Assembly (NCBI GenBank): GCA_963692905.1
Contig: OY843583.1
Coordinates: 21,703 to 85,702 of the forward strand
From: Spirochaetia bacterium
GTDB taxonomy: Bacteria > Spirochaetota > Spirochaetia > G963692905
DNA: 64,000 nt
Direction of reading: 5' to 3'
The position numbers were made by a program, and so were the translations under genes. The notes under the pieces were generated by a model, which saw only the letters and a list, made by a program, of their open reading frames with translations, was not told the DNA's origin and ran no database searches. Of the stretch, positions 7,713 to 61,483 are shown in pieces (position 1 is the stretch's first letter; every line of letters starts with the position of its first letter).

Positions 7713-9893
7713 TTATCGGCGGTGGTGGCGCGGGGTACTTCGTGAACGCTCTCTCGAAGAGTGTGATCGATAATTAGAACGCGGCGCATATTCGGAATTG
7801 TGATTGGACTGTGAGGCCACCGGGTTACCCTGTTCATCTACCACGCAAAGATTAACTCGACCCAGTTTATCTATCTCTATAATTTTAACGGGTATCTCCT
7901 GATTTATCTGTAGCACATCGGAGACTGAGTTAATTCGTCGCTCTGCGATCTTAGAGATATGGCAAAGACCCTCTTTGCCAGGGAGAAATTCGATGAATGC
8001 ACCAAAATCTACTATTCTCTTTACCGTTCCTTGATATACCTTTCCTACCTCTGGCTCTTCAAGTAATTTCAAAAAGGCCTGCTGTGCCTCTTCGCCGCTC
8101 TTGCTATCTGAACTATAGATGGTAATGCTGCCATCATCATCTATATTGGTATTAACCGTGAAACGTTCATTAATAGACTTAATAGTCTTACCAGAGGGAC
8201 CAATCAATATACCCAAATTTTCGGGGTTAACGCGAAAGGTAACAATGCGGGGCGCATATTGCGAGAGTTTTTTCTCATAACTGGAAAGGGTTTTATTCAT
8301 CTCATTAAGCACATGCAAGCGTCCCACCCGTGCTTGCTCTAAAGCCTCCTGCATTATTTTAGAATCAATATTTTTAATCTTTATATCCATCTGAAAACCG
8401 GTGATACCTCGCTCGGTGCCAGCCACCTTAAAATCCATATCGCCTAGATGATCCTCAACACCCAAAATATCACTCAATATCACATACTGATTCTCCTCTT
8501 TAATAAGCCCCATCGCTATGCCGGCTACTGGTCGCTCTATAGGAACGCCCGCCTGCATCAGCGAGAGACTAGCGCCGCATACGGTAGCCATAGATGAGGA
8601 ACCATTCGACTCTAGTACCTCAGAGACCACCCGTATGGTGTAGGGAAATTGCTCCTTAATGGGAATAGAGGAGCGCAGAGAGCGGTTGGCCAATTCACCA
8701 TGCCCTATCTCTCTTCTTCCGGTAGCCAGACGGCCCGTCTCCCCTACCGAGAAGGGGGGAAAGTTGTAATGTAGCATAAAGCGCTCTCTTCTATCACCAG
8801 CTATATCATCAAGTATCTGCTCATCGTAGACGGTGCCTAAGGTAGTGCTCACTAGCGCTTGGGTCTCACCACGGGTAAAAAGCGCTGAACCATGGGCCCG
8901 TGGAAGAATTGCTACATCGCAACTAATATCGCGTATATGATCCGGAGCGCGTCCATCGCTACGCACCTTTTTGTTGAGAATAGATTCTCGTATTATCTGC
9001 TGCTCAATATCCTCTATGATCTCGCCTACATGATGCTGCTCCTCTTCCTCTATAGCATCAGAGAATTTTTCGGTAGCATCAATAGCAATCTGACGAATAG
9101 CGTTGGATCGATTGTGCTTACCCTTTACAAAGCAGGCCTGTTGCAGCCGGGGGCCACTATATTCTCGTAGCTCCTTCTCCCACGAGAGTTTCGCCTCCGG
9201 CTCTTCAATGGTAAACTTCTCTTTACCGCATAGCTTAACCAGCTCCATTTGTAGCCGGCAAAGTTCAGCAATAGGCTGTTCGGCCTGCTTAAGCGCTCCC
9301 AATAATATCTCTTCGCTAATCTCTTTCGCGCCACCCTCTACCATGATAATTCCTCCCTCTGTGCCAGCTACCACAATATCCAGTGTAGCCTGCTCCATTT
9401 GAGGAATACTAGGATTGACAAGATATTTATCCTCTACATAGCAGATTCTTACCGCGCCCACCGGCCCTTCAAAGGGAACATCCGAGACCATCACCGCGGC
9501 CGATGAGGCATTGATGGCCAATGTGTCGGGAACAAAAGCTGGATCTGAGGAGAGAGTGGTGGGCACTATCTGAAGATCGCGCCGCAGGAATTTAGGAAAC
9601 AGAGGGCGCAACGGCCGATCAATAAGCCGCGAGATGAGAATCTCTCGATCCTTAGGGCGCGCCTCACGCTTAAGGAAGCCTCCGGGAATTTTTCCTGCTG
9701 CATAGTATTTTTCGTTATATTCCACCTGCAAGGGCAGGTAGTCAATATCGCTATTCTCCGGGGCGCAACAGGCTGTGGAAAGTACCGCAGTGCCCTCCAT
9801 TAGCGCCAGTACCGAACCGTTGGCTTGAGTAGCTAACTTCCCACTCTGGAAGGTTATAGTATGTTCACCAATAGTGCTCTTTACTTCATGCAT
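7713..9893 (-). CDS. pnp: Polynucleotide phosphorylase, with an unusual basic Ser/Arg/His-rich C-terminal tail.
   Basis: Two RNase PH domains, a KH domain and an S1 domain (GKVYQGTVKRIVDFGAFIEF). It lies downstream of rpsO, as in the conserved operon. Confidence 0.9.
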   Translation of the reverse strand: MHEVKSTIGEHTITFQSGKLATQANGSVLALMEGTAVLSTACCAPENSDIDYLPLQVEYNEKYYAAGKIPGGFLKREARPKDREILISRLIDRPLRPLFPKFLRRDLQIVPTTLSSDPAFVPDTLAINASSAAVMVSDVPFEGPVGAVRICYVEDKYLVNPSIPQMEQATLDIVVAGTEGGIIMVEGGAKEISEEILLGALKQAEQPIAELCRLQMELVKLCGKEKFTIEEPEAKLSWEKELREYSGPRLQQACFVKGKHNRSNAIRQIAIDATEKFSDAIEEEEQHHVGEIIEDIEQQIIRESILNKKVRSDGRAPDHIRDISCDVAILPRAHGSALFTRGETQALVSTTLGTVYDEQILDDIAGDRRERFMLHYNFPPFSVGETGRLATGRREIGHGELANRSLRSSIPIKEQFPYTIRVVSEVLESNGSSSMATVCGASLSLMQAGVPIERPVAGIAMGLIKEENQYVILSDILGVEDHLGDMDFKVAGTERGITGFQMDIKIKNIDSKIMQEALEQARVGRLHVLNEMNKTLSSYEKKLSQYAPRIVTFRVNPENLGILIGPSGKTIKSINERFTVNTNIDDDGSITIYSSDSKSGEEAQQAFLKLLEEPEVGKVYQGTVKRIVDFGAFIEFLPGKEGLCHISKIAERRINSVSDVLQINQEIPVKIIEIDKLGRVNLCVVDEQGNPVASQSNHNSEYAPRSNYRSHSSRERSRSTPRHHRR

Positions 9894-9915: not shown

Positions 9916-10200
9916 TCACTTTTGAACGCGAGAGGTGCTGGAGGAGATAGGGCGTATTTTTAGCTCTTTTATTACTTTTTGAGCACGCTCGCGATCGTTA
10001 CGCATTAAATACTGTATTAATCGCCGACGCTTCCCAATAAGTTGCAAGAGTCCCCGTCGTGTAGAGAAATCCTTCCGATGCACCTTAAGATGACCAGTCA
10101 AATGATGAATACGCTCACTAAAAAGCGCAATTTGCGCGGCACTATTTCCACTATCTTTGACATCTTTCCCAAACTTCTCAATAATATTTTTCTTAAGCAT
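9916..10200 (-). CDS. rpsO: 30S ribosomal protein S15.
   Basis: S15 core LTGHLKVHRKDFSTRRGLLQLIGKRRRLIQYL. It lies immediately upstream of pnp. Confidence 0.85.
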   Translation of the reverse strand: MLKKNIIEKFGKDVKDSGNSAAQIALFSERIHHLTGHLKVHRKDFSTRRGLLQLIGKRRRLIQYLMRNDRERAQKVIKELKIRPISSSTSRVQK

Positions 10201-10215
10201 TAGCTTTCTTTATCT

Positions 10216-10258
10216 TTACTGACATAGTGGCAATATAGCATACAATAGCCACTATGTC
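10216..10258 (-). promoter_or_regulatory. Perfect 11-bp inverted repeat (gacatagtggc...gccactatgtc) with a 16-nt loop. It lies 16 nt upstream of the rpsO start codon and is a possible leader hairpin or operator.
   Basis: Seen directly in the sequence. The position is analogous to regulated rpsO-pnp leaders in other bacteria. Confidence 0.4.
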
Positions 10259-10276
10259 AAGCTTTTTACAGCTTTT

Positions 10277-10306
10277 TGTAAAAGAAAGTTAAAAATGTTC
10301 CTTTCC
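10277..10306. repeat. Copy of dispersed repeat module C (tgtaaaagaaagttaaaaatgttcctttcc).
   Basis: Near-identical 21-mer shared with 10608, 19733, 54236 and 54347. Confidence 0.8.
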
Positions 10307-10548
10307 TCTCGCTATACTAGAGGATTATGACTAGAGCAACAGTATGTATGTGCATCAAAGAGATAGCTCTATACAACGCCGCTATGAGACTTGCCATGCA
10401 CCAATTGCACTTTGGTATATGGTGATAAGTGACGAGAGGCGCGATAGTATGCTCTTCGCAAGAGATGCACAGGCATACAGGCCCTTGCTCTTGCCAATAA
10501 TCTCTTTTAGCAAATATGGGGTAAACACTTTTTTGTGTCTCCTAAAGA

Positions 10549-10645
10549 GCCATTAAATTATTAGATGTATATAAGGGTGTACAGAAATGAGGAATTTTGT
10601 AAAAGAAAGTTGAAAATGTCCCTTTGAAAGAACCATAAAGAGAGA
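10549..10645. repeat. Composite dispersed repeat containing modules A, B and C in order (gccattaaattattagatgtatataagggtgtaca ... tgtaaaagaaagttgaaaatgtccctttgaaagaacc).
   Basis: Module A+B is about 90% identical to 33250-33290. Module C is identical to copies at 54236 and 54347. Confidence 0.85.
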
Positions 10646-10670
10646 GGAGCAGCAGCATCTTCAGCATCTC

Positions 10671-11783
10671 CTATTGGTAGCGGCGTGGTACACGGGAGCT
10701 AATGGAGGTTAAAATCTCATAGGAGATAGTACCGCAGCGGTTGGCCAGATCGGCAGCATCTGACGCCGGTGCTTGCGCCCCAAATAGGGTAACCCGATCA
10801 TAACGCTCCACCGGGGTAATATGTCCCACATCAATCATAAGCTGATCCATACAGATCCGTCCCACAATGGGGGCCAGATAGGACTGCTGCTTGCTATTTT
10901 TGCAATGTACCGCAACATAACCATTATTGGAGAGCCGCCGCGGCAGACCATCGCCATAGCCAATGGGAAGCGTAGCAATAATAGTAGGTCTAGAGCTATG
11001 CCAGGTGCTGCCGTAAGAGATGGGGCTCTGGGCCTCCACCCGCTTAAGAAAGACAATCTGCGACTGCAACTCCATAACCGGTAGGATGCCGGGCGGTGCC
11101 TTATGCTGCGGATCAGGATGATAACCGTAAAGCATAATGCCGGGGCGTACCATATCTAAGTGATCCACGTACTGATTAATGATTGCTCCTGAATTGGCGG
11201 CGTGGCGCAGCCAGGGCCGCTTAGTGGTGGCTATCTGCCGTAGCGCCTGCTGAAATTGCTCATATTGCCAGCTGGTAGACTGGGCATCGGTAGAATTGGC
11301 ATAGTGGGTAGCAATGCCCGCTAGCTGTAGCTCTCTTTGATCATTAATATAGTCAACCAGCGCTGGCAGCTGTTGGGGGGCGGCGCCAATTCGACCCATG
11401 CCGGTATCTACTTTGAGATGTACCGCCACCCGCCTCTGCGCCCGTCGAGCAACCTGCGCCAACTCGCGACAGATCGCAATATCGCAGACAAAGGGCTGGA
11501 GATCATGCTGTACAATATCATGTAGCTCTGATGGATGAGTCAAACTGTAGAGCATAAGTGGCGCGCCAATATGGGCCTCTCGTAATATACGCGCCTCCTC
11601 TATGGTGGCCACCCCCAGTGCCGCTACCCCCTCGGCTAACAATAGACGGGCTACCTCTACCGCCCCATGTCCATAGCCATTGGCCTTAACTGCTGCGCAT
11701 ATTGGCTGTTGCGCCAGCTGGCGCACCACTGCCACATTGGCTCGCAGATGTGAAAGATGAATTATAGCCTGTGTAGCTCTCAT
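10671..11783 (-). CDS. alr: Alanine racemase.
   Basis: PLP-binding motif AVVKANGYGHG near the N-terminus and a C-terminal racemase domain of about 370 aa. Confidence 0.85.
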   Translation of the reverse strand: MRATQAIIHLSHLRANVAVVRQLAQQPICAAVKANGYGHGAVEVARLLLAEGVAALGVATIEEARILREAHIGAPLMLYSLTHPSELHDIVQHDLQPFVCDIAICRELAQVARRAQRRVAVHLKVDTGMGRIGAAPQQLPALVDYINDQRELQLAGIATHYANSTDAQSTSWQYEQFQQALRQIATTKRPWLRHAANSGAIINQYVDHLDMVRPGIMLYGYHPDPQHKAPPGILPVMELQSQIVFLKRVEAQSPISYGSTWHSSRPTIIATLPIGYGDGLPRRLSNNGYVAVHCKNSKQQSYLAPIVGRICMDQLMIDVGHITPVERYDRVTLFGAQAPASDAADLANRCGTISYEILTSISSRVPRRYQ

Positions 11784-18751: not shown

Positions 18752-19606
18752 CTAACGCAATACCTGTCGTAGCAACTGCACTGTGCTCTCATCATGTGCC
18801 TGTATTACTCGTTGGCTGGCCTCATAGGCTCGATTAACCTCAATCATACGTACCATTTCGGTAACCGGATTAACATTTGCGGTCTCTAGAAATCCCTGCT
18901 GTATCTTTGGGCCCTCCTCAATCGTCACCGCCTCACCAGAATCTTCGGTGGTTCTCCATAGGCTGGAGCCCTGCTTTTGTAGATAGCGCGGGCGAGGCAC
19001 TCCCACAACACGCAGAGTATCCAACAGATCTTCAGATCGCCAGTCGTTCTCTCTCCGAGAGACCAAACGAAAAGGGTCATCTTGAAAGTCGTTGTTAACA
19101 TAGATGGCGCCGCGAGAATCAACATAAAAATTATTAAGCTTGATCGGTATTCGGCCATTCTCACCTAGCACCGGATAGCCCTCCTTGGTAACCAGAAGAC
19201 TCTCTGGTCCAAGATGGAAACTACCATTACGGGTATAGCGCTCGCCATCGGGGGTCTCTACTACAAAGAAGCCCTCCCCCTCTAAGGCGAAGTCAAATAC
19301 ATTCTCGGTTTGACGCAGGCTGCCCTGCTCAAAAACAGTATATATCTCATTTTGCTCCACCCCAGTGCCCAATCGACCTACCACCGGTGCGCTATCTACT
19401 GATCCCCAACGTCCATCACTATGGGGAATGGTACGCAAACCGTCATCATTAAAGCGTCTAATAAGAATCTCGGGAAAGGCCTTGTGTATTGAAAGATCGC
19501 GCTTATAGCCACTGGTATTCACATTGGCCAAGTTGTTGGCTAAGGCATCCAGTCGCCGTTGTTGCGCTAACATCCCGCTAGCAGCGGTATACCATCCCCG
19601 TACCAT
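18752..19606 (-). CDS. Flagellar basal-body rod protein, FlgF or a FlgG paralog.
   Basis: N-terminus MVRGWYTAASGMLAQQRRLDALANNLANVNTSGYKR and a C-terminal GFLETANVN. It is adjacent to flgG. Confidence 0.75.
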   Translation of the reverse strand: MVRGWYTAASGMLAQQRRLDALANNLANVNTSGYKRDLSIHKAFPEILIRRFNDDGLRTIPHSDGRWGSVDSAPVVGRLGTGVEQNEIYTVFEQGSLRQTENVFDFALEGEGFFVVETPDGERYTRNGSFHLGPESLLVTKEGYPVLGENGRIPIKLNNFYVDSRGAIYVNNDFQDDPFRLVSRRENDWRSEDLLDTLRVVGVPRPRYLQKQGSSLWRTTEDSGEAVTIEEGPKIQQGFLETANVNPVTEMVRMIEVNRAYEASQRVIQAHDESTVQLLRQVLR

Positions 19607-19742
19607 AGATAGTATTATATCGACAGTTTGTAAAATATAATTGAATAAAACTGAAGCCGGACTATGGGCACCATCAGGCCTATTTTCAAAAGAATTGAAA
19701 GAGGGAAAATTGAAAGAAATATGAAGTAAAGTGTAAAAGAAA

Positions 19743-19771
19743 GTTGAAAATGATTGATTAATGGCATATCA
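19743..19771 (+). promoter_or_regulatory. Candidate sigma-70 promoter for tRNA-Thr (TTGAAA, 17-nt spacer, TATCAT). The -35 element lies inside a module C repeat copy.
   Basis: Hexamers and spacing read directly from the sequence. The mature tRNA 5' end is 18 nt downstream. Confidence 0.3.
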
Positions 19772-19788
19772 TGCTGATAGTTTAATCT

Positions 19789-19860
19789 CGCCGCGATAGC
19801 TCAGTGGTAGAGCAGCTCACTCGTAATGAGCAGGTCGTGGGTTCAAATCCCACTCACGGC
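19789..19860 (+). tRNA. tRNA-Thr (anticodon CGT).
   Basis: A manual cloverleaf fold shows an acceptor GCCGCGA/TCACGGC with one mismatch, D arm GCTC-AGTGGTA-GAGC, anticodon stem GCTCA/TGAGC with loop CTCGTAA, and T arm GTGGG-TTCAAAT-CCCAC. No CCA is encoded. Confidence 0.8.
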
Positions 19861-19862
19861 TT

Positions 19863-32752: not shown

Positions 32753-32819
32753 CTATATCCCCTTAAGTATGACCCCATCTTGACTGTTCTCTCAAAACTC
32801 TCTCAAAACCTTTTCAAAG

Positions 32820-32891
32820 CTGGGACGGTAGGATTCGAACCTACGATCCCGGGACCAAAACCCGGTGGCTTAACCCCTTGCCCACGTCCCA
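32820..32891 (-). tRNA. tRNA-Gln (anticodon TTG) with a U1:A72 pair.
   Basis: Manual fold of the reverse complement gives acceptor TGGGACG/CGTCCCA, anticodon stem CCGGG/CCCGG with loop TTTTGGT, and T arm GTAGG-TTCGAAT-CCTAC. U1:A72 is the typical bacterial tRNA-Gln identity pair. Confidence 0.75.
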
Positions 32892-33249
32892 TTCTATACT
32901 ATTGTAGCATCTATGGCAAGTTACTGTCCATACTCCCTAAGGAAAATAAAGAGAGAGTTGACCGCTCTCCAACAAGAAATACAGCGGAGAGCTGCGTTTC
33001 TGCCTACAATAAAAAGGGCCATGAAAACATGATAACTATTGAATATAGAATGACCAATTAGATATGGAATGGGTAATCAAAAAAGGCCGAGGGCCGGCGA
33101 TTAAACACAAGTCCTCAACCCATTATTATTTAGAAGGAAGGTTTCTTATGAAGCTTAATTATTTTAGTTGTTTGTAGGATACAACAGTCTTGCCATTAAT
33201 CTTTCTTAGCAAGTATAGGATACAGGCCTTTTTTGCCTCTCCTTAAAGT

Positions 33250-33290
33250 GCCATTTAATTATTAGATGTATATGAGGGTGTACAATGGTT
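33250..33290. repeat. Copy of dispersed repeat modules A+B (gccatttaattattagatgtatatgagggtgtaca).
   Basis: About 90% identical to 10549-10585. Confidence 0.8.
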
Positions 33291-33394
33291 GAAGAGTGAT
33301 AATAGCTTAACCATTAGGAAATTAAAAGAGAGGGCTGACCTCCTCTCTCTCCTCACTCCCGAAACTGTGCCACGGAGAAATGAGACTCGCTACA

Positions 33395-33424
33395 CAAAAA
33401 ATAGGGAGGGGTTAAACCCTCCCT
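33395..33424 (-). terminator. Intrinsic terminator for the paralog-1 lipoprotein gene (stem AGGGAGGG/CCCTCCCT, loop of 6 nt, then AUUUUUU on the minus strand).
   Basis: Hairpin and T-run read directly from the sequence. It lies 52 nt downstream of the gene end. Confidence 0.55.
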
Positions 33425-33475
33425 ATCCTATCTTTAGACGCGCTTCTCTACCTCTGGCCCTTTTGCGGCTATCTA

Positions 33476-34471
33476 TTATTGATAGCGGAGTGCATAGAGG
33501 GCATCATTTGTAAATCCCACCATATAGAGGGTGCTGCCAATGGCCGCTAGACCGGCTGGTTGGACTTCGCTCACGCCAAAGTTGGTTGCACTGCCCACTT
33601 GGGTTGCGCTACCGGTAATAGTGTCTAGGGTAACCAGGACATCACTGGACGCCGCCGCCATATAGAGGGTGCCACCAATGGCGGCCAGGCCGGCAGGATT
33701 GTCTTCGCCCTCGCCAAATTCGGTTGCACTGCCTACCCGGGATGCCATACCATCGGGGGTCATATCAGCGGAGTCAATGTTGATGGTATAGAGGGCAGTT
33801 TGAGCCCGTCCTATCATATAGAGGGTGCCATCAATGGCGGCCAGGCCGGTTGGTTGGCCTTCGCCCACGCCAAATTGGCTTACACTGGCATCACTCACCA
33901 GGGTGGCTCTACCGGTAGTAGTATTTAGGGTATAGAGGACCGCTTGGCCCCATCCCGTCATATAGAGGGTGTCACCAATAGCTTCCAGAGCATATGGTGA
34001 GATTTCGCTCACGCCAAAGCCGGCGGGCGTATTTCCCACCTGGGTTGCTGTACCGTTATCGGCGGAGCCATCCTCGTCACTAATATCTAGGGTATACAGG
34101 ACATCATTTGTAAATCCCACCATATAGAGGGTTTCGCCGATGGCGGCTAGGCCGCTTGGAGCGTCTTCGCCCTCGCCAAATTGGTTGGCCCTGCCTATGC
34201 GGGTGGCCTCTCCTACCGCTACTTGCCCACAGCTTCTGCCAACTACATCAGTGGTGCCATCCAGTCTATAGAGCAGATTGCAGCTAGCACAGCGGGTTAG
34301 ACCATCGGCAGTGGCATCTCTGAGCGATGAGGCGCTGCCGTTGGCACAGGCATATCTATATTGGGATCCACCACCAGGACCTCCCCCTCCATTATTCGCA
34401 GCCGGACAGGCTACCAATACTACCAGGGCCACCAATACCATTAAGGCGATCCCCAGGGTGCCCCCAAGCAT
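33476..34471 (-). CDS. Repeat-containing lipoprotein, paralog 1. It has an N-terminal Cys-containing segment and six copies of a roughly 48-aa repeat (consensus ...FG.GE..P.GLAAIG.TLYM.G....LYT.N...G), which looks like a beta-propeller.
   Basis: Signal peptide with lipobox LVAC and a Gly-rich linker. The internal repeats are visible by eye. There is an RBS (AAGGGGAGG) upstream of the ATG. Confidence 0.6.
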   Translation of the reverse strand: MLGGTLGIALMVLVALVVLVACPAANNGGGGPGGGSQYRYACANGSASSLRDATADGLTRCASCNLLYRLDGTTDVVGRSCGQVAVGEATRIGRANQFGEGEDAPSGLAAIGETLYMVGFTNDVLYTLDISDEDGSADNGTATQVGNTPAGFGVSEISPYALEAIGDTLYMTGWGQAVLYTLNTTTGRATLVSDASVSQFGVGEGQPTGLAAIDGTLYMIGRAQTALYTINIDSADMTPDGMASRVGSATEFGEGEDNPAGLAAIGGTLYMAAASSDVLVTLDTITGSATQVGSATNFGVSEVQPAGLAAIGSTLYMVGFTNDALYALRYQ

Positions 34472-34534
34472 CCTCCCCTTAAGCGGGGAATGCGAGGAGC
34501 TGTGGTTCTCTCTCTGGCAAGTATTAAGAGAGCT

Positions 34535-34607
<73 letters not shown>

Positions 34608-34977
34608 GCGTTTTACGAGTGCTCAGTCGCTCCTTCACTCTCTCATTCTCTCCTAAAAGGAAAGAAATTGGATTATGTAATATCATTACTATAATCCTCC
34701 TTATTTATATTTATTTGGTAGGCACAAAATGAACTATAACTAGGGGAGAGGAGCATAGCTTCCCTCCGCATAGCACACTATAGCCAACTGGTGCATTACC
34801 ATAGGTATATGTATACCCTATTGGATATGTAATGGCAAGGTTTTTTTAAGAAATTTAGGAAAATAAAGAGCCATCCTGACCCCTTTCTCCAGCAAGAAAT
34901 GTAACGGAGAGCTGCGTTTCTGCCTACAATAAAAGGAAATTAAAGAGAGAACTGGCCGCTACTTCGGCAATTTCTGC

Positions 34978-35007
34978 ACAAAAAAAGGGAAGAGTTAAAC
35001 CCTTCCC
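34978..35007 (-). terminator. Intrinsic terminator for the RCC1-repeat lipoprotein gene (stem AGGGAAG/CTTCCCT followed by a T-run on the minus strand).
   Basis: Hairpin and T-run read directly from the sequence. It is homologous to the terminator at 33395-33424. Confidence 0.5.
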
Positions 35008-35123
35008 TATCCTATTGGAATCGCGCTTCTCTGTCTCTGTCCTGTACACCCTCACTCCCTAGAAGCATTGTTACACTCTCTAATCCAACTCAATGGGTTT
35101 TCTCATCTCGGCTAACGGGAAGC

Positions 35124-35816
35124 CTACAGATCAACAAAGGGGAGATTATCGCCCATCTCACCGGGCCCATCGCCTCGAGCATCGCCATCTTCCAGACCTA
35201 GCTGGCCAACAGTGTTTCTTCCCCAACACTTAACGCGGTCATTATCCAACAGGGCACAGCTGTGATTGACACCTGCATCTATCTGGGTGGCAGTTCGGCC
35301 GCTCCCTAGATCAATAGCTGGGAAACTATCGCCCATCTCACCGGGCCCATCGCCTCGAGCATCGGTATCGCCCAGACCTAGCTGGCCAACAGAGTTATAT
35401 CCCCAACACTTGACGCTTCCATTGTCCAACAGGGCACAGCTGTGACCTATTTCAGTATTAACTCCACTAATTGTTACTAAATTTCCATTGGCTACTATCT
35501 GAGTAGCGGTTCGGCCAGTGCCTAGACCAATAGCCGGGATAGTAGCCACCCCATCAGTGGTGCTTTCGCCTAGGGTGCGGGCATGACCCTGACCTAGCTG
35601 GCCAACAGTGTTTCTTCCCCAACACTTAACGCGGTCATTATCCAACAGGGCACAGATATGCCCGCGAGCCGCTGCCACCTGTGTGACAGAGGCCAATCCC
35701 GGACCAGGGCCAGGCGCAGGCGCAGCCGGACAGGCTACCAATACTGCTACTAAAAGTAGCACCAGGGCTCCTAAAATAGCCCCTAAAGCGCCATTAAGAA
35801 TCTTATTTCTAATCAT
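35124..35816 (-). CDS. RCC1-repeat lipoprotein, paralog 2.
   Basis: Signal peptide with lipobox LVAC and a Pro/Gly linker. At least four RCC1-type repeats are present (HxCALLDNxxVKCWGxNxVGQLG[LQ]GD). Its 5' end and flanks are homologous to paralog 1. Confidence 0.65.
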   Translation of the reverse strand: MIRNKILNGALGAILGALVLLLVAVLVACPAAPAPGPGPGLASVTQVAAARGHICALLDNDRVKCWGRNTVGQLGQGHARTLGESTTDGVATIPAIGLGTGRTATQIVANGNLVTISGVNTEIGHSCALLDNGSVKCWGYNSVGQLGLGDTDARGDGPGEMGDSFPAIDLGSGRTATQIDAGVNHSCALLDNDRVKCWGRNTVGQLGLEDGDARGDGPGEMGDNLPFVDL

Positions 35817-35988
35817 AACAAATTTCCCCTTTTCTCTCTCTGGGTGCTTGGGGAGCGCTCAGTTACTCTGTACGCTCTCTCTTCCCTAAAAGGAAAGAGG
35901 GAGCGTATTTAATATTGTTACACATTTTTTTAAGGCAGGGCTTAGCCCTGCCCTTTTGTGGCTTAGCATTGGATAGCTATCGCCTTAT

Positions 35989-37389
35989 TCACGGTGCAGT
36001 GCGAATAACATAGAGTGCTCTATTGTCATTTCCAAGCATATAGAGAATAGTGCCAATCCCTGTCAATCCTTGTGGATCCTCCTCATTCACCATGCCAAAG
36101 CCGGCGCCTAATGAACCCACTTGGGCTGCTGTGCCGGTAGTAGTATCAAGAGTATAGAGACGGGCCAAACCGCCTCCTCTCGACAGATAGAGGGTGTTGC
36201 CCACCGCGCCAAGTCCGTATGAATTCAAAAAACCTCGGCCAAATCCTCTTGGGCCCACCCGGTATGCCATACCATCGGAGCTCCCATCAGTGGGATCAAC
36301 ATTGATAGTAAAGAGGGCATGTAGGCTCTCTCCCACCATATAGAGAGTGTTTGTGCTGTCAATACCGGCCAGTCCATCAACCAATCTTTCACCCACTCCA
36401 AAGCCGGCGTCCACACTGCCCACTCGCGTTGCAATACCATTAGTAGTGTTGAGGGTGTAGAGGAATGAAAAGTTTCCGCTTCCCGTTATATAGAGGGTGG
36501 TACCAAGCGCACCAAGTGCCCTGGGTTTCAATGTATTAGTAAGTCCTGTGCCTTGGCCAAAATTGATTGCGTTGCCCACCCGGTATGCCATACCATCGGG
36601 GCTCCCATCAGTGGGATCAATGTTTATGGTGTAGAGTGCACCTGTGTCAACTGAGCTTTGAGCTATCATATAGAGGGTGTCACCAATGGAGGTCAGGCCT
36701 CTTGACATTACAAGCCCCAAACCAAAACCTGCAGCAAGGTCACCCACTTGTCGTGCTTCTCCTAGTGGTACGGCGTTACAGGTAGTGCCCACGATCGGCG
36801 AGGTAGCACTCAGCTCATAGGTAAGATCGCACGCAGTACAGAACGTTTGACCCGCCATAGTAGGGGTCGCTGTGGATGGTGTGCCATTATCACAGCTGTA
36901 GTTCAAACGGTTACAGATCATACCAGCACCTCCGGCTGTCAATGTATAGCCAGTATTGCATGACATACAGTTTTGCCGCGCACTCCTGTCGAACATCATG
37001 ATTGTGCCGCTCACTGGCAATCCATTATCGCAGAGAAAAGGAAAATCAGTTGCACAGACGCTACCTGTCAACAGTGATCCCGTATCACAACTTGCGCATC
37101 TTTCAACATAATTATTGCCAGGAGGCATCCCGGTTTGGGGGACTCCGCCATCACAAGTATACTCAGTGCGGATATCACACCGATTATTGATTAATATGTA
37201 GGTAGAGTCACACGCTATACAATTCTCCCTATCCCTACTAGTGGTCGCGCCAGTAGCCTCCATTCCATTATTGCAGGTAAACGGGCGGGATGTAATGCCG
37301 CCACCAGGGACTGGGGATGGGGATGGGGATGGTTGACATCCTGCTATTACTAATCCTAATAGGATAGCCATTGTGACTATCTTCATCAT
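35989..37389 (-). CDS. Lipoprotein, paralog 3. It has four Cys-rich roughly 40-aa modules (CDNG.P....C..C..GY.L....C) followed by about seven copies of the same roughly 48-aa GLxxIGxTLYM...LYTxN repeat found in paralog 1.
   Basis: Lipobox VIAGC and a PSPSPSPVPGGG linker. The repeat is shared with paralog 1. A hairpin (GGCAGGGC/GCCCTGCC) lies 30-55 nt downstream of the gene. Confidence 0.6.
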   Translation of the reverse strand: MMKIVTMAILLGLVIAGCQPSPSPSPVPGGGITSRPFTCNNGMEATGATTSRDRENCIACDSTYILINNRCDIRTEYTCDGGVPQTGMPPGNNYVERCASCDTGSLLTGSVCATDFPFLCDNGLPVSGTIMMFDRSARQNCMSCNTGYTLTAGGAGMICNRLNYSCDNGTPSTATPTMAGQTFCTACDLTYELSATSPIVGTTCNAVPLGEARQVGDLAAGFGLGLVMSRGLTSIGDTLYMIAQSSVDTGALYTINIDPTDGSPDGMAYRVGNAINFGQGTGLTNTLKPRALGALGTTLYITGSGNFSFLYTLNTTNGIATRVGSVDAGFGVGERLVDGLAGIDSTNTLYMVGESLHALFTINVDPTDGSSDGMAYRVGPRGFGRGFLNSYGLGAVGNTLYLSRGGGLARLYTLDTTTGTAAQVGSLGAGFGMVNEEDPQGLTGIGTILYMLGNDNRALYVIRTAP

Positions 37390-52616: not shown

Positions 52617-54149
52617 CTAACGCGCATATTCTACTACCCGTGTCTCGCGTATCATAGTTACCTTAATACGTCCGGGGTATTGCAGCTGCTGCTCAATAGT
52701 ACGCGCAATATGTTGCGCTATACTGCGCGCCTCATGATCATCTACAATTTCATTATTAACCAGAATGCGCAATTCCCGGCCAGCCTGAATAGCGTAGGCC
52801 TTCTCTACTCCTGAAAACTCGCCAGCAATCTGCTCTAGATTTTTAAGCCGCTTCAAGTAATTATCAATTGATTCACGGCGGGCCCCGGGGCGAGAAGCTG
52901 AGATACTATCTGCCGCCTGCACAATGGTAGCCTCCGAACAACTGAAGGGCACATCGCCATGATGTGCCTCAATGCAATTGATTACCTCGCTACTCTCTCG
53001 GATACGTTTGGCAAACTCTACTCCCAATTCTACATGGGTGCTATCCTTATCTGATTCTATTCCCTTTCCTACATCATGGAGGATCCCGCCGCGCTTGGCA
53101 ATATCTCGATCGCAACCTACCTCCCCAGCAATCATACTAGCAATTATTGCCACCTCTTTGCTATGTTCTAGCACATTTTGACCATAGCTTTGGCGAAAAT
53201 GGAGTCTTCCAATAGCGGGAATAGCTGCCGGATCAATATGGTGAATCTCCAGCTCGTAGAGAGTCTTCTCTCCCCGTTCTTTGATTATCTCGTTGATATC
53301 TTGCTTTACCTTCTCAGCTGTCTCTTCAATGCGAGCGGGATGTATCCGTCCATCCCGTATCAACCGCTCCAGTGTCTGTCGAGCAATCTCCCGCCGAATT
53401 GGATCAAAGCAGGATATTATCACCATACCTGGAGTATCATCAATGACAATGTCTACGCCGGTTGCCAACTCTATTGAATGGATATTACGCCCCTCCTTGC
53501 CAATAATACGTCCCTTCATATCCTCACTGGGCAGTGCCACAGAGGTGGCGGTCATCTCGGCATTTATTACCGGTATAATGCGCTGGATAGCTGCAACCAC
53601 GATCCGCCGGGCTCGTCGTTGAGCATCAGAACTAGCCTCTTGCTCTATCTTTCTGATAGTATTCTGCGCATCATTGCGCGCGTCATCTTCTAGAGAAACT
53701 ATAAGCGAATGTTTGGCCTCTGCGGCCGACATGCCCGATACCTTCTCTAACTCTTGAACAAAGCGATCTTTCTGCTTACTGAGACCTGCTTCAATCTTTG
53801 TTAAGTGCCTCTCTCGATCGGAGAGTTGCTTTAGTGCCTGATCATGCTCAGAGGTACGCTTTTCAAATTCTGCCTCTTTCTCTGAGAGCCGCCGCTCACT
53901 ATTGTGTACAGTAGCGCGATACTCCTGAATCTCCTGTTCCTGCTTTCGCCGATCCTGCAGTAGACCCTCTTTCGCTTGAAGGATTATATCCTTTCGAGCG
54001 CTATCTGCATTCTGCTCTGCATCAAGTATTAATCTCTCTGCGCGGTTCTCTGCTGATGTCAGGAGAAACTTTCCATATATCCATCTAATCATCCATCCTA
54101 AAGCAATCCCAATAAGAGAAGCGGCAACAATAAATATAATTGTTAACAT
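52617..54149 (-). CDS. rny: Ribonuclease Y.
   Basis: N-terminal TM helix, coiled-coil, KH domain and HD domain (HHGDVPFSCSEATIVQAADSISASRPGARRES). Confidence 0.85.
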   Translation of the reverse strand: MLTIIFIVAASLIGIALGWMIRWIYGKFLLTSAENRAERLILDAEQNADSARKDIILQAKEGLLQDRRKQEQEIQEYRATVHNSERRLSEKEAEFEKRTSEHDQALKQLSDRERHLTKIEAGLSKQKDRFVQELEKVSGMSAAEAKHSLIVSLEDDARNDAQNTIRKIEQEASSDAQRRARRIVVAAIQRIIPVINAEMTATSVALPSEDMKGRIIGKEGRNIHSIELATGVDIVIDDTPGMVIISCFDPIRREIARQTLERLIRDGRIHPARIEETAEKVKQDINEIIKERGEKTLYELEIHHIDPAAIPAIGRLHFRQSYGQNVLEHSKEVAIIASMIAGEVGCDRDIAKRGGILHDVGKGIESDKDSTHVELGVEFAKRIRESSEVINCIEAHHGDVPFSCSEATIVQAADSISASRPGARRESIDNYLKRLKNLEQIAGEFSGVEKAYAIQAGRELRILVNNEIVDDHEARSIAQHIARTIEQQLQYPGRIKVTMIRETRVVEYAR

Positions 54150-54224
54150 ATTACCTATTCCTTATTATCGTTTTAATTTAGTTATGGTGATTATATCAGA
54201 TAATAATAGCACTGTCAACTATAT

Positions 54225-54449
54225 GTACACCCTCTTGTAAAAGAAAGTTGAAAATGTCCCTTTGAAAGAAAGATGAGGGGAGCGCTCTACCCTCACCATC
54301 TTCCACGAAGATCCTCGGTGTGCGATGGAGGTGTAGTACACCCTCTTGTAAAAGAAAGTTGAAAATGTCCCTTTGAAAGAAAGATGAGGGGAGCGCTCTA
54401 CCCTCACCATCTTCCACGAAGATCCTCGGTGTGCGATGGAGGTGTAGTA
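54225..54449. repeat. Tandem direct repeat, 2 x 111 bp. Each unit contains module B (inverted), module C and a GC-rich palindromic hairpin (gatgaggggagcgctctaccctcaccatc).
   Basis: The two units are essentially identical. It lies between the rny start and the 3' end of the BNR-repeat lipoprotein gene. Confidence 0.9.
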
Positions 54450-54776
54450 TTGTTATCCCTATCGAAGGTGGGAGAAAAAAAGGAATTGAGCATGCACCGG
54501 GGGAGTGTGTGAAGCACCTCTTCACACAAGAGTGATTTCAGTTTTTGTATCTCCAGAAAGAGAGGCTGGGAGTACCTGCACTGCATACCGTTATACCATG
54601 AAAGTGCAGAGGCTATGCTATAATCTGAGAGAGGGTTCTTGAGGCCAGGGAGAGGACGCCTTCATGAGGAAGCGGGGCAAGAGAGAGGGTTAATCTCCCT
54701 AGCTCCCTCCCCCCCTAAGTATGGCAAGAAGCGACTCTCCCCCTGCAGGGTGCTGCAGGGGGAGAGGTATTCACCG

Positions 54777-55964
54777 TTACCAGGCTCTGGTTATGGTGCC
54801 GCCGCTCCCCACGGCAAGAAAGCGATCATTGCCATACACCACACCACGCAGATTTGCACTTCCGCCATCACGGGAGCTCCACTGTAGGCCATCATTGCTT
54901 ATGACTACTGTGCCAGAATTTCCTACTGCTACCCAGGTGGAATTGCCGTAGGTGATGCCGTAGAGAGAACTCCCGGCATCGCTAGGGCGAGTACTCCAGC
55001 TGATACCGTCGCTACTAGTGAGGATGGTACTCCCACTAGGACTACTACTTCCCACCGCTACAAACATACCATTATGAGAGGCAATGTCGGTGAGATTTTG
55101 ATTCGTGCCACTTTCATGAGCACTCCACGTAGTAGCGTCGCTACTGGTGAAAACCGAACCGCCACTCCCCACCGCTACATAGCGGTTGGTGCCGTAGGCG
55201 ACTCCTAGAAGATCACGCGTCACATTGGGAGTATGCACGGTCCATCTGAGGCCGTCAGCGCTAGTGAGCACTGCTCCTCCCCCTCCCACTGCCGTAAATC
55301 CCCCATCAGCGAAGATAATACTGTAGATATTGGTAGCAGTGCCACTTTCTGAGGAGCTCCAGCTCCTCCCATCACTACTAGTAAGGATAGCACCTTGCAC
55401 TCCTACTGCCACAAAGGTATTGTTCCCATAGGCGATGTCCAAAAAGGAGGCGTTGCTACCGGAGGCAACACTCCAGCTAGTGCCATCGCGACTAGTGAGG
55501 AGTGCGCCACTCCATCCCACTGCCACAAAGGTGGCATTTCCATAGGAAACCGCATTAAGATCAGTTGAAATACCGCTCTCCAGGGCTTCCCACTGTGTTG
55601 CAGTACATCTCTCTACGCCATCACTGGTGGCCTCAAGGCGTACTGGGCTCCCATTACTACACCCATACATATACATGTCTGGGAGACGACTAGGGGTTGA
55701 TGGTGATGCGAGCAATGGCAGCGCCGTCGGTGCGGCACAACCTATAAGGGCAAATCCCCAGATCATAGCGAGGAGTATCCCGCCACTCCATCGACATAGC
55801 GTGCTCCCCCATAGCGGGGTGCACACAATAAGTCCTCTTTTTAGCAGGCGCCTGCGCGCACCCCTTAAGAGGGAGGTACATGCGCTACATGTACCATACC
55901 ATGTTAAAATACAATTAACCTTTCTCATAAAGAACTCCTTGTTAAAAAAAATTTTGTCGTACAA
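54777..55964 (-). CDS. BNR/Asp-box repeat beta-propeller protein (Ycf48-like). Probable lipoprotein.
   Basis: At least six repeats of the form LTSSDGxSWS...YGNxxFVAVG, which match the Asp-box SxDxGxTW. Candidate lipobox ALIGC. The true start is uncertain. Confidence 0.55.
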   Translation of the reverse strand: MYDKIFFNKEFFMRKVNCILTWYGTCSACTSLLRGARRRLLKRGLIVCTPLWGSTLCRWSGGILLAMIWGFALIGCAAPTALPLLASPSTPSRLPDMYMYGCSNGSPVRLEATSDGVERCTATQWEALESGISTDLNAVSYGNATFVAVGWSGALLTSRDGTSWSVASGSNASFLDIAYGNNTFVAVGVQGAILTSSDGRSWSSSESGTATNIYSIIFADGGFTAVGGGGAVLTSADGLRWTVHTPNVTRDLLGVAYGTNRYVAVGSGGSVFTSSDATTWSAHESGTNQNLTDIASHNGMFVAVGSSSPSGSTILTSSDGISWSTRPSDAGSSLYGITYGNSTWVAVGNSGTVVISNDGLQWSSRDGGSANLRGVVYGNDRFLAVGSGGTITRAW

Positions 55965-56722
55965 TCGACATATATAAATATAGGAAAGGTATGCTAATAT
56001 TGCGTGGTTTTTTTAAAAAATTCCTCAGTAGCCGCGGGTAAGAGGCGCCCATGGCTTATCCTCCATGGCGTAGATCTAGGGGCTGTCCCACTTAACTGAT
56101 TTTTGTCCATTTCCTATAGTAAGGAGATGCAAAAACCAAGATTGTCGTCTAGTATCATTAAGACGCTCATTGATTATTTTGTGCTTGGCGCTACTACTCA
56201 GGTCTATGGCCTAAGATCTATGACTTATATCTATGGCGTAGATCTATAGCGCTCATGAATGTGCGAATAGAGCAGTCATGAAAGAGATCCCCACCATGAG
56301 CCGGCGCTACCGGCTTATGCGCTATCCTCCTAGTAACCCGTGGGACACACTTCTGGTAGAGGTATGCTGCAAGAGATGCGTAAGTCATCTCTGGTGCACT
56401 TTCAAAGGTAGCTTCTAGTGAAGGAGGCCTTTCTCAATGAAGGCGCTTGCATCTTGCCTATTGGGTATGAGGCGGAGCTCCTCTCTCTATCGCTCTTAGG
56501 TTGCGAGAGATGAAAAAACTATTAGCGTATAGTCTTGCTCACAGAGGAAGGGTGGAGGAGGTAGTAGAGTAGCTTTTTGTGGCATTTTGTGTCGGAGAGA
56601 GGGGGCAAATGTCGCTTTATTTTCCGCTTAAAAGGTGCAAAAGCCTGTACAAATACTGTTATATCTTGTTACTATATATTCAACTTACAGTCCGTATGGG
56701 CTAAGGGCTATCATATTGGTTT

Positions 56723-56760
56723 GAGGGTTTGTGCTTGGTCGTAAACCCTCGGCCTTTTTT
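56723..56760 (+). terminator. Terminator-like hairpin on the plus strand (GAGGGTTT/AAACCCTC, 12-nt loop, then ggccTTTTTT). No annotated upstream gene accounts for it.
   Basis: Seen directly in the sequence. The T-run is only on the plus strand. Confidence 0.4.
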
Positions 56761-56939
56761 AATTAATTATTACCTATTTAATTACCCATCCCATATTCAA
56801 CAGCCACCATGTTTTTCATGGCGCTTTTTTATTGTAGGCAGAAGCGCAGCTCTCCGTGGTATTTCTTGTCGGAGAAAGGGGCCAGCGCTCTCTTTATTTT
56901 CCTTAGTGAGGGTGTACAAGTACTTGCACACCATACGCA

Positions 56940-56945
56940 TATAAT
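56940..56945 (+). promoter_or_regulatory. Perfect TATAAT -10 hexamer 15 nt upstream of the 56961 start codon. The transcript would have a short leader or be leaderless, and no SD sequence is visible.
   Basis: Hexamer read directly from the sequence. The -35 assignment is ambiguous. Confidence 0.3.
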
Positions 56946-56960
56946 ATATACTTTGCTACT

Positions 56961-59850: not shown

Positions 59851-59952
59851 TCACTTCCCTTTCTCTGGAGTGATTGGCGATAGTGCTGTAGGAGCTTTTC
59901 TCTCCGCGGCAATTACCGTCGGTGCTGCCTTGGTTCGGAAGGCTGAGTGGGC
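59851..59952 (-). pseudogene. Degenerate fragment of the valS 3' end (copy A), a footprint of segmental duplication.
   Basis: Translates to ...LEAHSAFRTKAAPTVIAAE, matching the valS C-terminal LEAHSAFRSKAAPTVIAAEE. The 58-nt core ctccgcggcaattaccgtcggtgctgccttggttcggaaggctgagtgggcctccag is shared with 61270-61326 and 62714-62770. Confidence 0.7.
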
Positions 59953-60102
59953 CTCCAGGAGAGGAGTATCCCCTAAGCGAGCGCAATACACTATTTTCAC
60001 ATATAATAGCTCTATATTCAAAAATTTCCTTGTAAAAACAACAAAACTATATTGCACACTATTAAGTTATGCTATACAATAACTTATATACAAGGATCTC
60101 TT

Positions 60103-61116: not shown

Positions 61117-61159
61117 AGCAGATAAGAACAATAGGGTGCCGGTGCTGGCATCCATCATC

Positions 61160-61326
61160 CAGCAGCAGATAGCATGCCTTCGGCATTCTAAAGAGTAAGT
61201 GTCTCTCACTTCATCTTTTCTAGGTCGGCCAGCAGGCGCTGCAGAAGCTTCTCTCTCTCCGCTAATTGGAGCGCCCGCTGCTCCTCCGCGGCAATTACTG
61301 TCGGTGCTGCCTTGGTTCGGAAGGCT
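61160..61326 (-). pseudogene. Copy B of the valS 3' end plus its downstream flank. It encodes ...LLQRLLADLEKMK-stop but is detached from valS.
   Basis: About 90% nucleotide identity to 62596-62770. The reading frame is truncated at the duplication junction (gggcctccag). Confidence 0.75.
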
Positions 61327-61483
61327 GAGTGGGCCTCCAGGGGAGGGATGTCCCCTAGGTGAGCGCAATACACTATTGCACATATAATAGCTCCATATTC
61401 AGAAATTTCCTTGTAAAAATAACAAAACTATATTGCACACTATTAAGTTATGCTATATTGTAACTTATAGAAAAGGATCTATT

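What the first reader, a model, noticed from the sequence alone, without database searches (positions are those of the whole stretch)
10277..10645. Modular dispersed intergenic repeat family (modules A, B and C) at six or more sites, including upstream of rpsO-pnp, rny and tRNA-Thr
Three short modules recur in intergenic DNA. Module A is ttaattattagatgtatat, module B is gagggtgtaca (a half-palindrome around TGTACA), and module C is tgtaaaagaaagttgaaaatg[tccctttgaaagaa]. Copies are found as follows. A+B+C at 10549-10645. C at 10277-10306. C at 19733-19754, where it supplies the candidate -35 for tRNA-Thr. A+B at 33250-33290. B(inverted)+C+hairpin as a 2x111-bp tandem at 54225-54449. B at 56908-56918. 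The family behaves like a MITE or REP element, or like a shared regulator-binding cassette. Two of the loci are the leaders of the RNA-decay genes rpsO-pnp and rny, which are autoregulated through leader elements in other bacteria.
Basis: seen in the sequence. Interest (0 to 1): 0.65.

Follow-up and report, generated by a model that had tools for sequence, protein, structure and literature searches.

The report
Shuffled promoter-region repeats in a spirochaete
The short repeats are real and far beyond chance, but they lie upstream of the rpsO and rny promoters rather than in their leaders, and look like lineage-specific copied pieces of promoter and terminator DNA (partly from tRNA promoters), which is a fairly ordinary kind of bacterial intergenic repeat.

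Summary
Module C (21-mer) occurs 5 times against 0.01 expected, A twice, and B 6 times in non-coding DNA plus one degenerate copy. All lie in large intergenic regions. The 2x111-bp tandem is 100% identical.

The modules are parts of longer blocks. C extends to an identical 36-mer in three copies. A+B is the end of a 97-nt repeat. B at 56908 ends a different 165-nt repeat shared by the upstream regions of tRNA-Gln, a lipoprotein gene and ORF 56961.

C contains the -35 (TTGAAA) of the tRNA-Thr promoter, and a relative keeps that -35. A degenerate B supplies the -35 of tRNA-Gln. At rpsO and rny, C points away from the gene and ends 16-17 nt upstream of each gene's own TTGACA promoter, so these are not leader elements.

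None of the modules occurs in 106 kb from related spirochaetes. Homology to the sister species stops at the rny -35 and the rpsO ATG, so the repeats sit at synteny breakpoints.

C is not palindromic, so it is not REP-like. Only the tandem unit has weak terminal inverted repeats, so MITE status is unproven.

Best reading: recently propagated promoter/terminator fragments, similar to 'mobile promoters' and mosaic intergenic repeats. A genome-wide census was impossible because the source genome could not be retrieved.

The parts
10274..10304 (+). Module C copy 1 (core 10277-10297, 1 mismatch). It lies 16 nt upstream of the rpsO -35 and points away from rpsO. It carries TTAAAA-N18-TATACT (10289-10318) on the + strand.
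10489..10583 (+). 97-nt repeat, copy 1. Its right end is module A (10554-10572) followed by module B (10573-10583).
10597..10632 (+). Module C copy 2 with its 36-nt extended block, identical to the blocks in the tandem units. Weak similarity to the unit continues to about 10660. It starts 38 nt beyond the alr stop codon.
19732..19752 (+). Module C copy 3. It contains the -35 TTGAAA (19744-19749) of the tRNA-Thr promoter; the -10 TATCAT is at 19767-19772 and the tRNA at 19790-19861.
33188..33284 (+). 97-nt repeat, copy 2, ending in A (33255-33273) and B (33274-33284).
32916..33093 (-). Copy of the 165-nt 'family 3' block (terminator-like hairpins plus promoter-upstream DNA). It ends in a degenerate B (32925-32935) whose TGGACA is the -35 of the tRNA-Gln promoter, TGGACA-N18-TACAAT (32930-32901).
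34857..34934 (-). Family-3 copy upstream of the beta-propeller lipoprotein gene 33476-34471. It has no B.
35043..35053 (-). Solo module B (exact match), between the stop codon of the RCC1-repeat gene 35124-35816 and that gene's terminator (35008-34986).
54225..54449 (+). Perfect tandem repeat of 2x111 bp. Each unit is B(inverted), then the C 36-mer, then a hairpin, then a B-like end (GGAGGTGTAG). It lies between the beta-propeller gene 54777-55964(-) and the rny promoter.
54190..54218 (-). rny promoter TTGACA-N17-TATAAT (12/12 match, with TG before the -10). B (54224-54234) ends 5 nt upstream of its -35.
10232..10260 (-). rpsO promoter TTGACA-N17-TATATT. It is bracketed by a 12-bp perfect inverted repeat at 10220-10231 and 10248-10259.
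56746..56918 (+). Reference copy of family 3, ending in module B (56908-56918). B ends 5 nt upstream of TTGCAC-N17-TATACT, the promoter of the leaderless-looking ORF 56961-58058.
56559..56625 (+). Partial family-3 copy.

Best explanation
The modules are lineage-specific, recently copied pieces of intergenic signal DNA. They are promoter -35/upstream segments and terminator-like hairpins that have been duplicated and recombined among the large intergenic regions of this spirochaete's chromosome. In behaviour they resemble 'mobile promoters' and mosaic intergenic repeats.

What each module is:
- Module C is the -35 hexamer (TTGAAA) plus the A-rich upstream flank of the tRNA-Thr promoter.
- Module B carries a -35-like hexamer (TGTACA). 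In its degenerate form (TGGACA) it is the -35 of tRNA-Gln. Elsewhere it sits exactly 5 nt upstream of the -35 of the rny and ORF 56961 promoters.
- A+B is the end of a separate 97-nt block.

What the copies can do: the copies beside rpsO and rny lie upstream of those genes' own promoters and face away from them. They cannot act as leader RNA elements. At most they act as upstream (UP- or activator-type) DNA, as divergent promoters, or, in the 111-nt unit, as a hairpin plus U-tract that insulates rny from the gene upstream.

Shown: the existence of the repeats, their extent, their positions relative to promoters, their absence in relatives, and their position at synteny breakpoints.

Inferred: the copying mechanism (duplication or illegitimate/homologous recombination), the tRNA-promoter origin of C, and any effect on transcription.
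For: 1. The copies are identical over 21-36 nt while their flanks are unrelated. That pattern fits copying rather than convergent evolution of binding sites.
2. At tRNA-Thr, C overlaps a promoter with correct geometry. Its GTTGAAAATGA core and N17 spacing are kept in relative L015, but the TGTAAAAGAAA half is not.
3. The C copy at 10277 is followed by TATACT at N18.
4. The degenerate B gives the only geometrically possible tRNA-Gln promoter, TGGACA-N18-TACAAT. The alternative -10 overlaps nucleotide 1 of the tRNA.
5. B ends 5 nt before the -35 at both rny and ORF 56961.
6. The 165-nt family-3 block, with terminator-like hairpins followed by a promoter, is shared by three unrelated transcription units: tRNA-Gln, the lipoprotein gene and ORF 56961.
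7. No A, B or C module occurs in 106 kb from 4-5 related genomes.
8. Homology to the sister species ends 4 nt upstream of the rny -35, at the rpsO ATG and at the alr stop codon. The neighbouring genes differ beyond those points.
9. The perfect 2x111 tandem shows that duplication is ongoing.
10. A relative (L013) has its own, different dispersed intergenic repeats.
Against: - Only 2 of the 5 C copies are followed by an acceptable -10. The tandem-unit copies have none (AGATGA/GATGAG), so most copies are not complete promoters.
- At rpsO and rny, C is in the wrong orientation to drive the adjacent gene.
- The blocks are shorter (21-48 nt) than the 50-nt/80% criterion used to define putative mobile promoters (PMC3488235).
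- No transcription data exist.
- The genome-wide distribution is unknown, because the 1.88-Mb source genome could not be retrieved.
- The near-equal spacing of C from the -35 at rpsO and rny (16 versus 17 nt) is not explained by random copying.
Confidence: 0.5

Rival explanations
1. The family is a non-autonomous mobile element (MITE-like). The 111-nt unit is the full element, B (TGTACACCCTC) is its terminal inverted repeat, and the other sites are partial copies or solo ends.
For: - The unit starts with TGTACACCCTC and ends with GGAGGTGTAG(TA), an imperfect inverted repeat of 9-11 nt.
- The whole unit folds on the minus strand with its ends paired: -35.2 kcal/mol, z = -3.0.
- B marks the boundary of three different repeat blocks.
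- The copies are lineage-specific.
- Correia elements in Neisseria also carry promoter hexamers and sit upstream of genes (PMC1797815).
Against: - The complete unit is seen at only one locus in 64 kb, as a tandem pair. All other copies share only 11-36 nt.
- There is no consistent target-site duplication.
- The inverted repeat has 2 mismatches in 9 nt.
- The 97-nt and 165-nt blocks have B at one end only.
- No transposase or RAYT gene is present in the window.
- No clean filled-versus-empty site comparison is possible, because whole intergenic regions differ from the relatives.
Confidence: 0.15
2. The family is a shared cis-regulatory cassette. C (with B) is the binding site of a trans-acting factor placed upstream of the promoters of rny, rpsO-pnp and tRNA genes, and it coordinates RNA-metabolism and translation genes.
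For: - C (inverted) ends 16 nt upstream of the rpsO -35 and 17 nt upstream of the rny -35, so it is centred near -62, a typical activator position.
- The 48-nt rny upstream block aligns end to end with the rpsO upstream region.
- Three of the four C loci adjoin stable-RNA, ribosomal or RNA-decay genes.
- TTGAAAG/A motifs recur upstream of tRNA-Thr.
- B is half of a 22-bp near-palindrome at ORF 56961.
Against: - The cassette is absent from the rny and rpsO upstream regions of the sister species and other relatives, although the core promoters are kept.
- The copies are 21/21 identical rather than degenerate like binding sites.
- Orientation relative to the gene differs between tRNA-Thr and rny/rpsO.
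- One copy lies just downstream of alr, far from any -35.
- Only two positional coincidences support it.
Confidence: 0.15
3. [quoted passage not shown] B (core palindrome TGTACA) is a short recombination site that bounds diverse spacer blocks, promoting rearrangement and variation of the adjacent surface-protein genes.
For: - B lies at junctions between unrelated repeat blocks at six sites.
- The repeats sit at synteny breakpoints.
- They lie next to expanded beta-propeller, RCC1 and ankyrin gene families.
- NIME architecture and its link to surface-gene variation are documented (PMC1797815).
Against: - There are no arrays of alternating B and spacer, apart from one two-unit tandem.
- B is mostly single rather than paired.
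- No recombinase candidate is present in the window.
- The association with breakpoints could simply reflect that new DNA accumulates there.
Confidence: 0.1

Closest known systems
Putative mobile promoters (PMPs; Matus-Garcia, Nijveen & van Passel 2012, PMC3488235)
   Same: In both, highly similar non-coding upstream segments are found in front of non-homologous genes within one genome, and they are often lineage-specific. tRNA-related sequences are frequent among PMPs. The 165-nt family-3 block (82% identity) upstream of tRNA-Gln and ORF 56961 fits the concept.
   Different: PMPs are defined as alignments of at least 50 nt at 80% identity or more, within about 150 nt of the start codons of non-homologous CDSs. 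Modules C (21-36 nt), B (11 nt) and A (19 nt) are shorter. Several copies are inverted relative to the nearest gene or lie downstream of a gene. One partner of the family-3 pair is a tRNA gene, not a CDS.
Neisserial intergenic mosaic elements (NIME: dRS3 + RS) and Correia elements (PMC1797815); E. coli BIMEs (own knowledge)
   Same: All are mosaic, modular intergenic repeats in which a short motif bounds different repeat blocks. They are located next to variable surface-protein genes and at dynamic loci. Correia elements also carry promoter hexamers.
   Different: There is no sequence similarity. B is an 11-mer with a 6-bp palindromic core, not a 20-bp dRS3 inverted repeat. No long arrays are present. 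No 26-51-bp terminal inverted repeats are present. Copy number in the genome is unknown.
Borrelia upstream homology box (UHB) shared by ospE/ospF-related genes (Marconi et al. 1996, as cited in PMC10016077)
   Same: Both are conserved promoter-containing upstream blocks in a spirochaete, shared by several genes and spread by recombination.
   Different: The UHB flanks members of related lipoprotein gene families on cp32 plasmids. Here the blocks are chromosomal and lie upstream of unrelated genes (tRNAs, rny, rpsO, an ORF). There is no sequence relationship.
REP/REPIN elements with RAYT transposases (PMC8049555; own knowledge)
   Same: Both are short, abundant extragenic repeats, often placed between genes.
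   Different: REPs are imperfect palindromes. The C 36-mer has no hairpin potential (about 0 kcal/mol). No RAYT gene was seen.

Membership tests
MITE (e.g. Correia/CREE-type) | Terminal inverted repeats on each copy | tested here: inconclusive
   Only the 111-nt unit has an imperfect 9-11-nt inverted repeat (TGTACACCCTC ... GGAGGTGTAG). The 97-nt and 165-nt blocks carry B at one end only.
MITE (e.g. Correia/CREE-type) | Several dispersed full-length copies with target-site duplications | tested here: not met
   Within the window the full unit occurs only as one tandem pair. No consistent flanking direct repeat is visible. The whole genome could not be tested.
MITE (e.g. Correia/CREE-type) | Precise presence/absence (filled versus empty sites) among related genomes | tested here: inconclusive
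   The modules are absent in relatives, but entire intergenic regions are non-homologous and the neighbouring genes differ, so no empty site can be defined.
REP/REPIN | Unit is a 20-40-nt imperfect palindrome | tested here: not met
   The C 36-mer folds at -0.3/-0.4 kcal/mol with z about 0 on either strand.
REP/REPIN | Cognate RAYT transposase in the genome | not testable with these tools
   The source genome could not be retrieved. None is present among the window proteins that were scanned.
Putative mobile promoter (PMC3488235) | Alignment of at least 50 nt at 80% identity or more between upstream regions | tested here: inconclusive
   Met by family 3 (165 nt at 82%, and 79 nt at 86%). Not met by C (31-36 nt) or by the rny/rpsO 48-nt block at about 70% identity.
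Putative mobile promoter (PMC3488235) | Downstream and upstream genes are non-homologous | tested here: met
   The downstream units are tRNA-Thr, tRNA-Gln, rny, rpsO, ORF 56961 and a beta-propeller lipoprotein gene, which are unrelated.
Putative mobile promoter (PMC3488235) | The repeat lies in the promoter zone, in the orientation of the downstream gene | tested here: inconclusive
   Met for C at tRNA-Thr, for B at rny, ORF 56961 and tRNA-Gln, and for family 3. Not met for C at rny and rpsO (inverted) or for the C copy downstream of alr.
rpsO (S15) / RNase Y autoregulatory leader element | The element lies in the transcribed 5' leader of the regulated mRNA | tested here: not met
   The modules lie upstream of the -35 of the rpsO promoter (10260-10232) and the rny promoter (54218-54190) and are inverted. 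Relatives also have TTGACA promoters at both genes.
rpsO (S15) / RNase Y autoregulatory leader element | Match to a described leader RNA family, or conservation at orthologous loci | tested here: not met
   Rfam gave no hit at the gathering threshold or at E<=1 in 10150-10720 and 54100-57000, apart from chance miRNA-model hits. The modules are absent at the orthologous loci L014, L016, L013 and L017.
NIME-like mosaic array | A short inverted-repeat motif flanks each of many different spacer blocks, in arrays | tested here: not met
   B bounds three block types, but mostly as a single copy. The only array is the two-unit tandem.

The most novel reading that the evidence does not exclude
The B motif (GAGGGTGTACA) and the C block may belong to a lineage-specific, self-propagating mosaic system. 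In this reading a short recombination or binding site shuttles promoter and terminator fragments between intergenic regions, rewires upstream regions of core genes (rny, rpsO-pnp, tRNAs) and creates the synteny breakpoints seen against sister species. That would be a NIME-like or mobile-promoter mechanism not yet described in spirochaetes.
Probability: 0.15. Interest if true: 0.55.

Novelty: new member of a known kind. Interest (0 to 1): 0.3.

Why it matters
If the copying is real and recent, this genome gives a compact example of promoter and terminator fragments being re-used in front of unrelated core genes in a small, host-associated spirochaete. It also shows such repeats marking the points where gene order has changed relative to sister species. 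That bears on how reduced genomes rewire transcription and rearrange. It does not bear on autoregulation of PNPase, S15 or RNase Y, because the elements lie outside those mRNAs.

Tried and rejected
- Exact scans for the C 21-mer (R allowed at position 15) in genome contigs, metagenome contigs and viral contigs gave only single chance hits in unrelated taxa, or none.
- The source genome, a 1,881,732-bp contig known to the protein index, could not be fetched through exact-protein look-ups.

**Known RNA families.** Rfam gave only the two tRNAs at the gathering threshold. At E<=1 in the two main intergenic regions it gave nothing relevant.

**Coding remnants.**
- Six-frame tblastn of five intergenic regions against relatives found nothing except the within-window repeats.
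- The small ORFs in the regions are not conserved between repeat copies.
- One weak hint remains: B(inverted)+A(inverted) reads LYTLIYI** in both 97-nt copies, resembling the C-termini of beta-propeller paralogs (LYALRYQ*, LYVLRYQ*). The nucleotide identity is only about 50% and the frame was chosen after the fact, so this is not adopted.

**Structured RNA in the 97-nt repeat.** The z-scores range from -1.3 to +0.5 on both strands, so this was rejected.

**C (inverted) as a general terminator U-tract.**
- Only the tandem unit has a strong preceding hairpin (-21 kcal/mol).
- The hairpins at the alr-proximal and rpsO-proximal copies are no better than shuffled sequence.

**Remodelling of the alr 3' end by the repeat.** Rejected. 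The alr C-terminus is conserved to the stop codon.

**The rpsO promoter as a copy of the rny promoter.** Similarity beyond C is within the background seen among unrelated promoters, so this is not claimed.

Full report
**Observation**

All three modules are present at, or within a few bases of, the stated coordinates.
- The C 21-mer occurs five times on the + strand: 10277 (1 mismatch), 10598, 19732, 54236 and 54347. The chance expectation is 0.01.
- A occurs twice, at 10554 and 33255.
- B occurs seven times at up to 1 mismatch, against 0.48 expected.
- The tandem repeat at 54225-54449 has period 111, 2.0 copies and 100% identity.

Self-BLAST and repeat finding show that the modules are overlaps between longer blocks:
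- a 36-nt C block that is identical at 10597-10632, 54235-54270 and 54346-54381;
- a 97-nt block (10489-10583 and 33188-33284, 83.5% identity) whose right end is A+B;
- a 165-nt 'family 3' block (56746-56910, inverted at 33093-32933, 82% identity; also at 34934-34857 and 56559-56625) whose right end is B.

**Context**

The window comes from a spirochaete.
- Its RNase Y, PNPase and FlgF have their best named hits, at about 60-65% identity, in Spirochaetaceae, Spirochaeta and other Spirochaetota.
- G+C content is 49%.

Genes, from Pfam and tRNA scans:

| Gene | Coordinates (strand) |
|---|---|
| pnp | 7713-9893 (-) |
| rpsO | 9916-10200 (-) |
| alr | 10671-11783 (-) |
| flgF-like | 18752-19606 (-) |
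| tRNA-Thr | 19790-19861 (+) |
| tRNA-Gln | 32819-32891 (-) |
| beta-propeller/RCC1 lipoprotein-like genes | 33476-37389 |
| rny | 52617-54149 (-) |
| another beta-propeller gene | 54777-55964 (-) |
| ORF | 56961-58058 (+) |
| adenylate cyclase | 58072-59784 (+) |
| two tandem ankyrin genes | 60052-61116 and 61433-62560 (+) |

All repeat copies lie in the unusually large intergenic regions: 10201-10670, 19607-19789, 32892-33475, 34472-35123, 54150-54776 and 55965-56960.

**Position relative to promoters**

rpsO and rny each have a promoter close to the start codon:
- rpsO: TTGACA-N17-TATATT at 10260-10232;
- rny: TTGACA-N17-TATAAT at 54218-54190, a 12/12 match with TG before the -10.

Relatives have TTGACA-N17 promoters at both genes, and for rny the promoter lies inside the block that aligns with L014.

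C lies upstream of these promoters on the opposite strand. It ends 16 nt (rpsO) and 17 nt (rny) before the -35. The modules are therefore not in the rpsO or rny leaders.

At tRNA-Thr, C is in the sense orientation and its TTGAAA is the -35 of TTGAAA-N17-TATCAT. Relative L015 keeps GTTGAAAATGA-N-TAGTAT at the same place but lacks the TGTAAAAGAAA half.

The remaining C copies:
- The copy at 10277 is followed by TATACT at N18, and 8 nt later by the ATG of a 32-codon ORF.
- The copy at 10598 has only CATAAA.
- The tandem-unit copies have no -10.

For B:
- B ends exactly 5 nt upstream of the -35 at rny and at ORF 56961.
- The degenerate B at 32925-32935 supplies TGGACA. This is the only -35 compatible with the tRNA-Gln 5' end (TGGACA-N18-TACAAT), because the alternative -10 overlaps the first nucleotide of the tRNA.

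Family 3 consists of terminator-like hairpins followed by a promoter. It is shared by three unrelated transcription units.

**Comparison with relatives**

The source genome appears in the protein index as a 1.88-Mb contig but could not be fetched. Exact scans of the genome, metagenome and viral collections for C found only isolated chance hits, so no genome-wide census was possible.

Loci from relatives were obtained through orthologous proteins:
- L014 and L016, the sister species, at about 83-85% nucleotide identity;
- L015, at about 78-80% nucleotide identity;
- L013, L017, L018 and L019.

None of these 106 kb contains A, B or C, even at relaxed mismatch thresholds.

Alignment with the window stops at three precise points:
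- 4 nt upstream of the rny -35 (L014 position 9930 = window 54222);
- at the rpsO ATG (L016 position 9691 = window 10201);
- at the alr stop codon, with the alr C-terminus conserved to the stop.

Beyond these points the neighbouring genes differ: gatCAB or a transaldolase gene upstream of rny, methylase fragments upstream of rpsO, and a DUF4394-like gene after alr. The repeats therefore occupy lineage-specific DNA at synteny breakpoints. Relative L013 has its own, unrelated dispersed intergenic repeats.

**Tests of the proposed classes**

- REP: C has no hairpin potential.
- MITE:
  - The 111-nt unit has an imperfect terminal inverted repeat, and its minus strand folds well (-35 kcal/mol, z = -3.0).
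  - It contains a -21 kcal/mol hairpin followed by UUUCUUUC. This could terminate the upstream beta-propeller gene just before the rny promoter.
  - However, the full unit occurs only once, as a tandem pair. Other copies share only 11-36 nt, there is no target-site duplication, and no transposase lies nearby.
- Leader or riboswitch: Rfam finds nothing.
- Coding relic:
  - There is no protein-level similarity to relatives.
  - A weak hint remains that B(inverted)+A(inverted) (LYTLIYI**) derives from the 3' end of a beta-propeller paralog.

**Interpretation**

The most economical reading is that these are recently copied fragments of promoter and terminator DNA.
- C is shared with, and probably derived from, the tRNA-Thr promoter.
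- B and family 3 are shared with the tRNA-Gln promoter region.
- The fragments have been shuffled among intergenic regions that are themselves new relative to sister species.

This matches the concept of promoter propagation ('putative mobile promoters', PMC3488235). It also resembles mosaic intergenic repeats such as neisserial NIME and Correia elements (PMC1797815) and the Borrelia upstream homology box (cited in PMC10016077). C, B and A are too short to satisfy the formal PMP criterion, and there is no sequence relationship to any named family.

Two alternatives remain open at lower probability:
- a true MITE, with B as its end;
- a regulator-binding cassette, suggested by the matching 16/17-nt spacing of C from the -35 at rpsO and rny.

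**Verdict**

- The finding is a new member of a known kind of feature.
- Interest is modest (0.3). It would rise only if a genome-wide census or transcript mapping revealed a coherent mobile or regulatory system.

Noticed in passing
window 10220-10259: A perfect 12-bp inverted repeat, TGACATAGTGGC ... GCCACTATGTCA, brackets the -10 of the rpsO promoter. It looks like an operator, or like a hairpin if transcription started further upstream. It could be the real regulatory feature of rpsO-pnp here.
   Followed up: no
window 34537-34604; L015 10309-10366: A (TC)34 dinucleotide tract lies in the 5' region of the beta-propeller lipoprotein gene 33476-34471(-). The relative L015 has a (GA)n tract upstream of its DUF4394-like homologue. 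This is a candidate phase-variation switch conserved across species.
   Followed up: partly
window 19606-19625, 56947-56963, 10313-10329; L014 about 9829-9870: Several genes appear leaderless, with the -10 hexamer 6-8 nt before the ATG: the flgF-like gene (TATAAT-7 nt-ATG), ORF 56961 (TATACT-8 nt-ATG), the small ORF 10327-10425, and gatC and rpsO in relatives.
   Followed up: no
window 56710-56930 (+) and 33129-32916 (-): A block of about 220 nt is duplicated in inverted orientation, in front of ORF 56961 and in front of tRNA-Gln. It comprises a strong intrinsic terminator (56721-56752 plus a T-run), two further hairpins, a promoter-upstream segment and B. It may end a small transcript that starts near 56650-56690.
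   Followed up: partly
window 59902-62811: A tandem duplication of about 1.4 kb (89-96% identity) carries two ankyrin-repeat genes, 60052-61116 and 61433-62560. Together with the beta-propeller and RCC1-repeat genes, these suggest a host-associated lifestyle.
   Followed up: partly
window 56911-56932: A 22-bp near-palindrome, GGTGTACAAGTACTTGCACACC, overlaps the -35 of the ORF 56961 promoter. Module B is its left half. It is a possible operator.
   Followed up: no
window 55965-56710: A stretch of about 750 nt has no convincing ORF or Rfam match. It lies between the beta-propeller gene 54777-55964 and the repeat block, and its content is unexplained.
   Followed up: no
L013 13621-13680 / 20330-20270 and 1923-1960 / 6551-6514: A related genome (a 1.15-Mb contig) has its own short dispersed intergenic repeats (87-92% identity), unrelated in sequence to A, B or C. 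Dispersed intergenic repeats may be a general trait of this lineage.
   Followed up: partly
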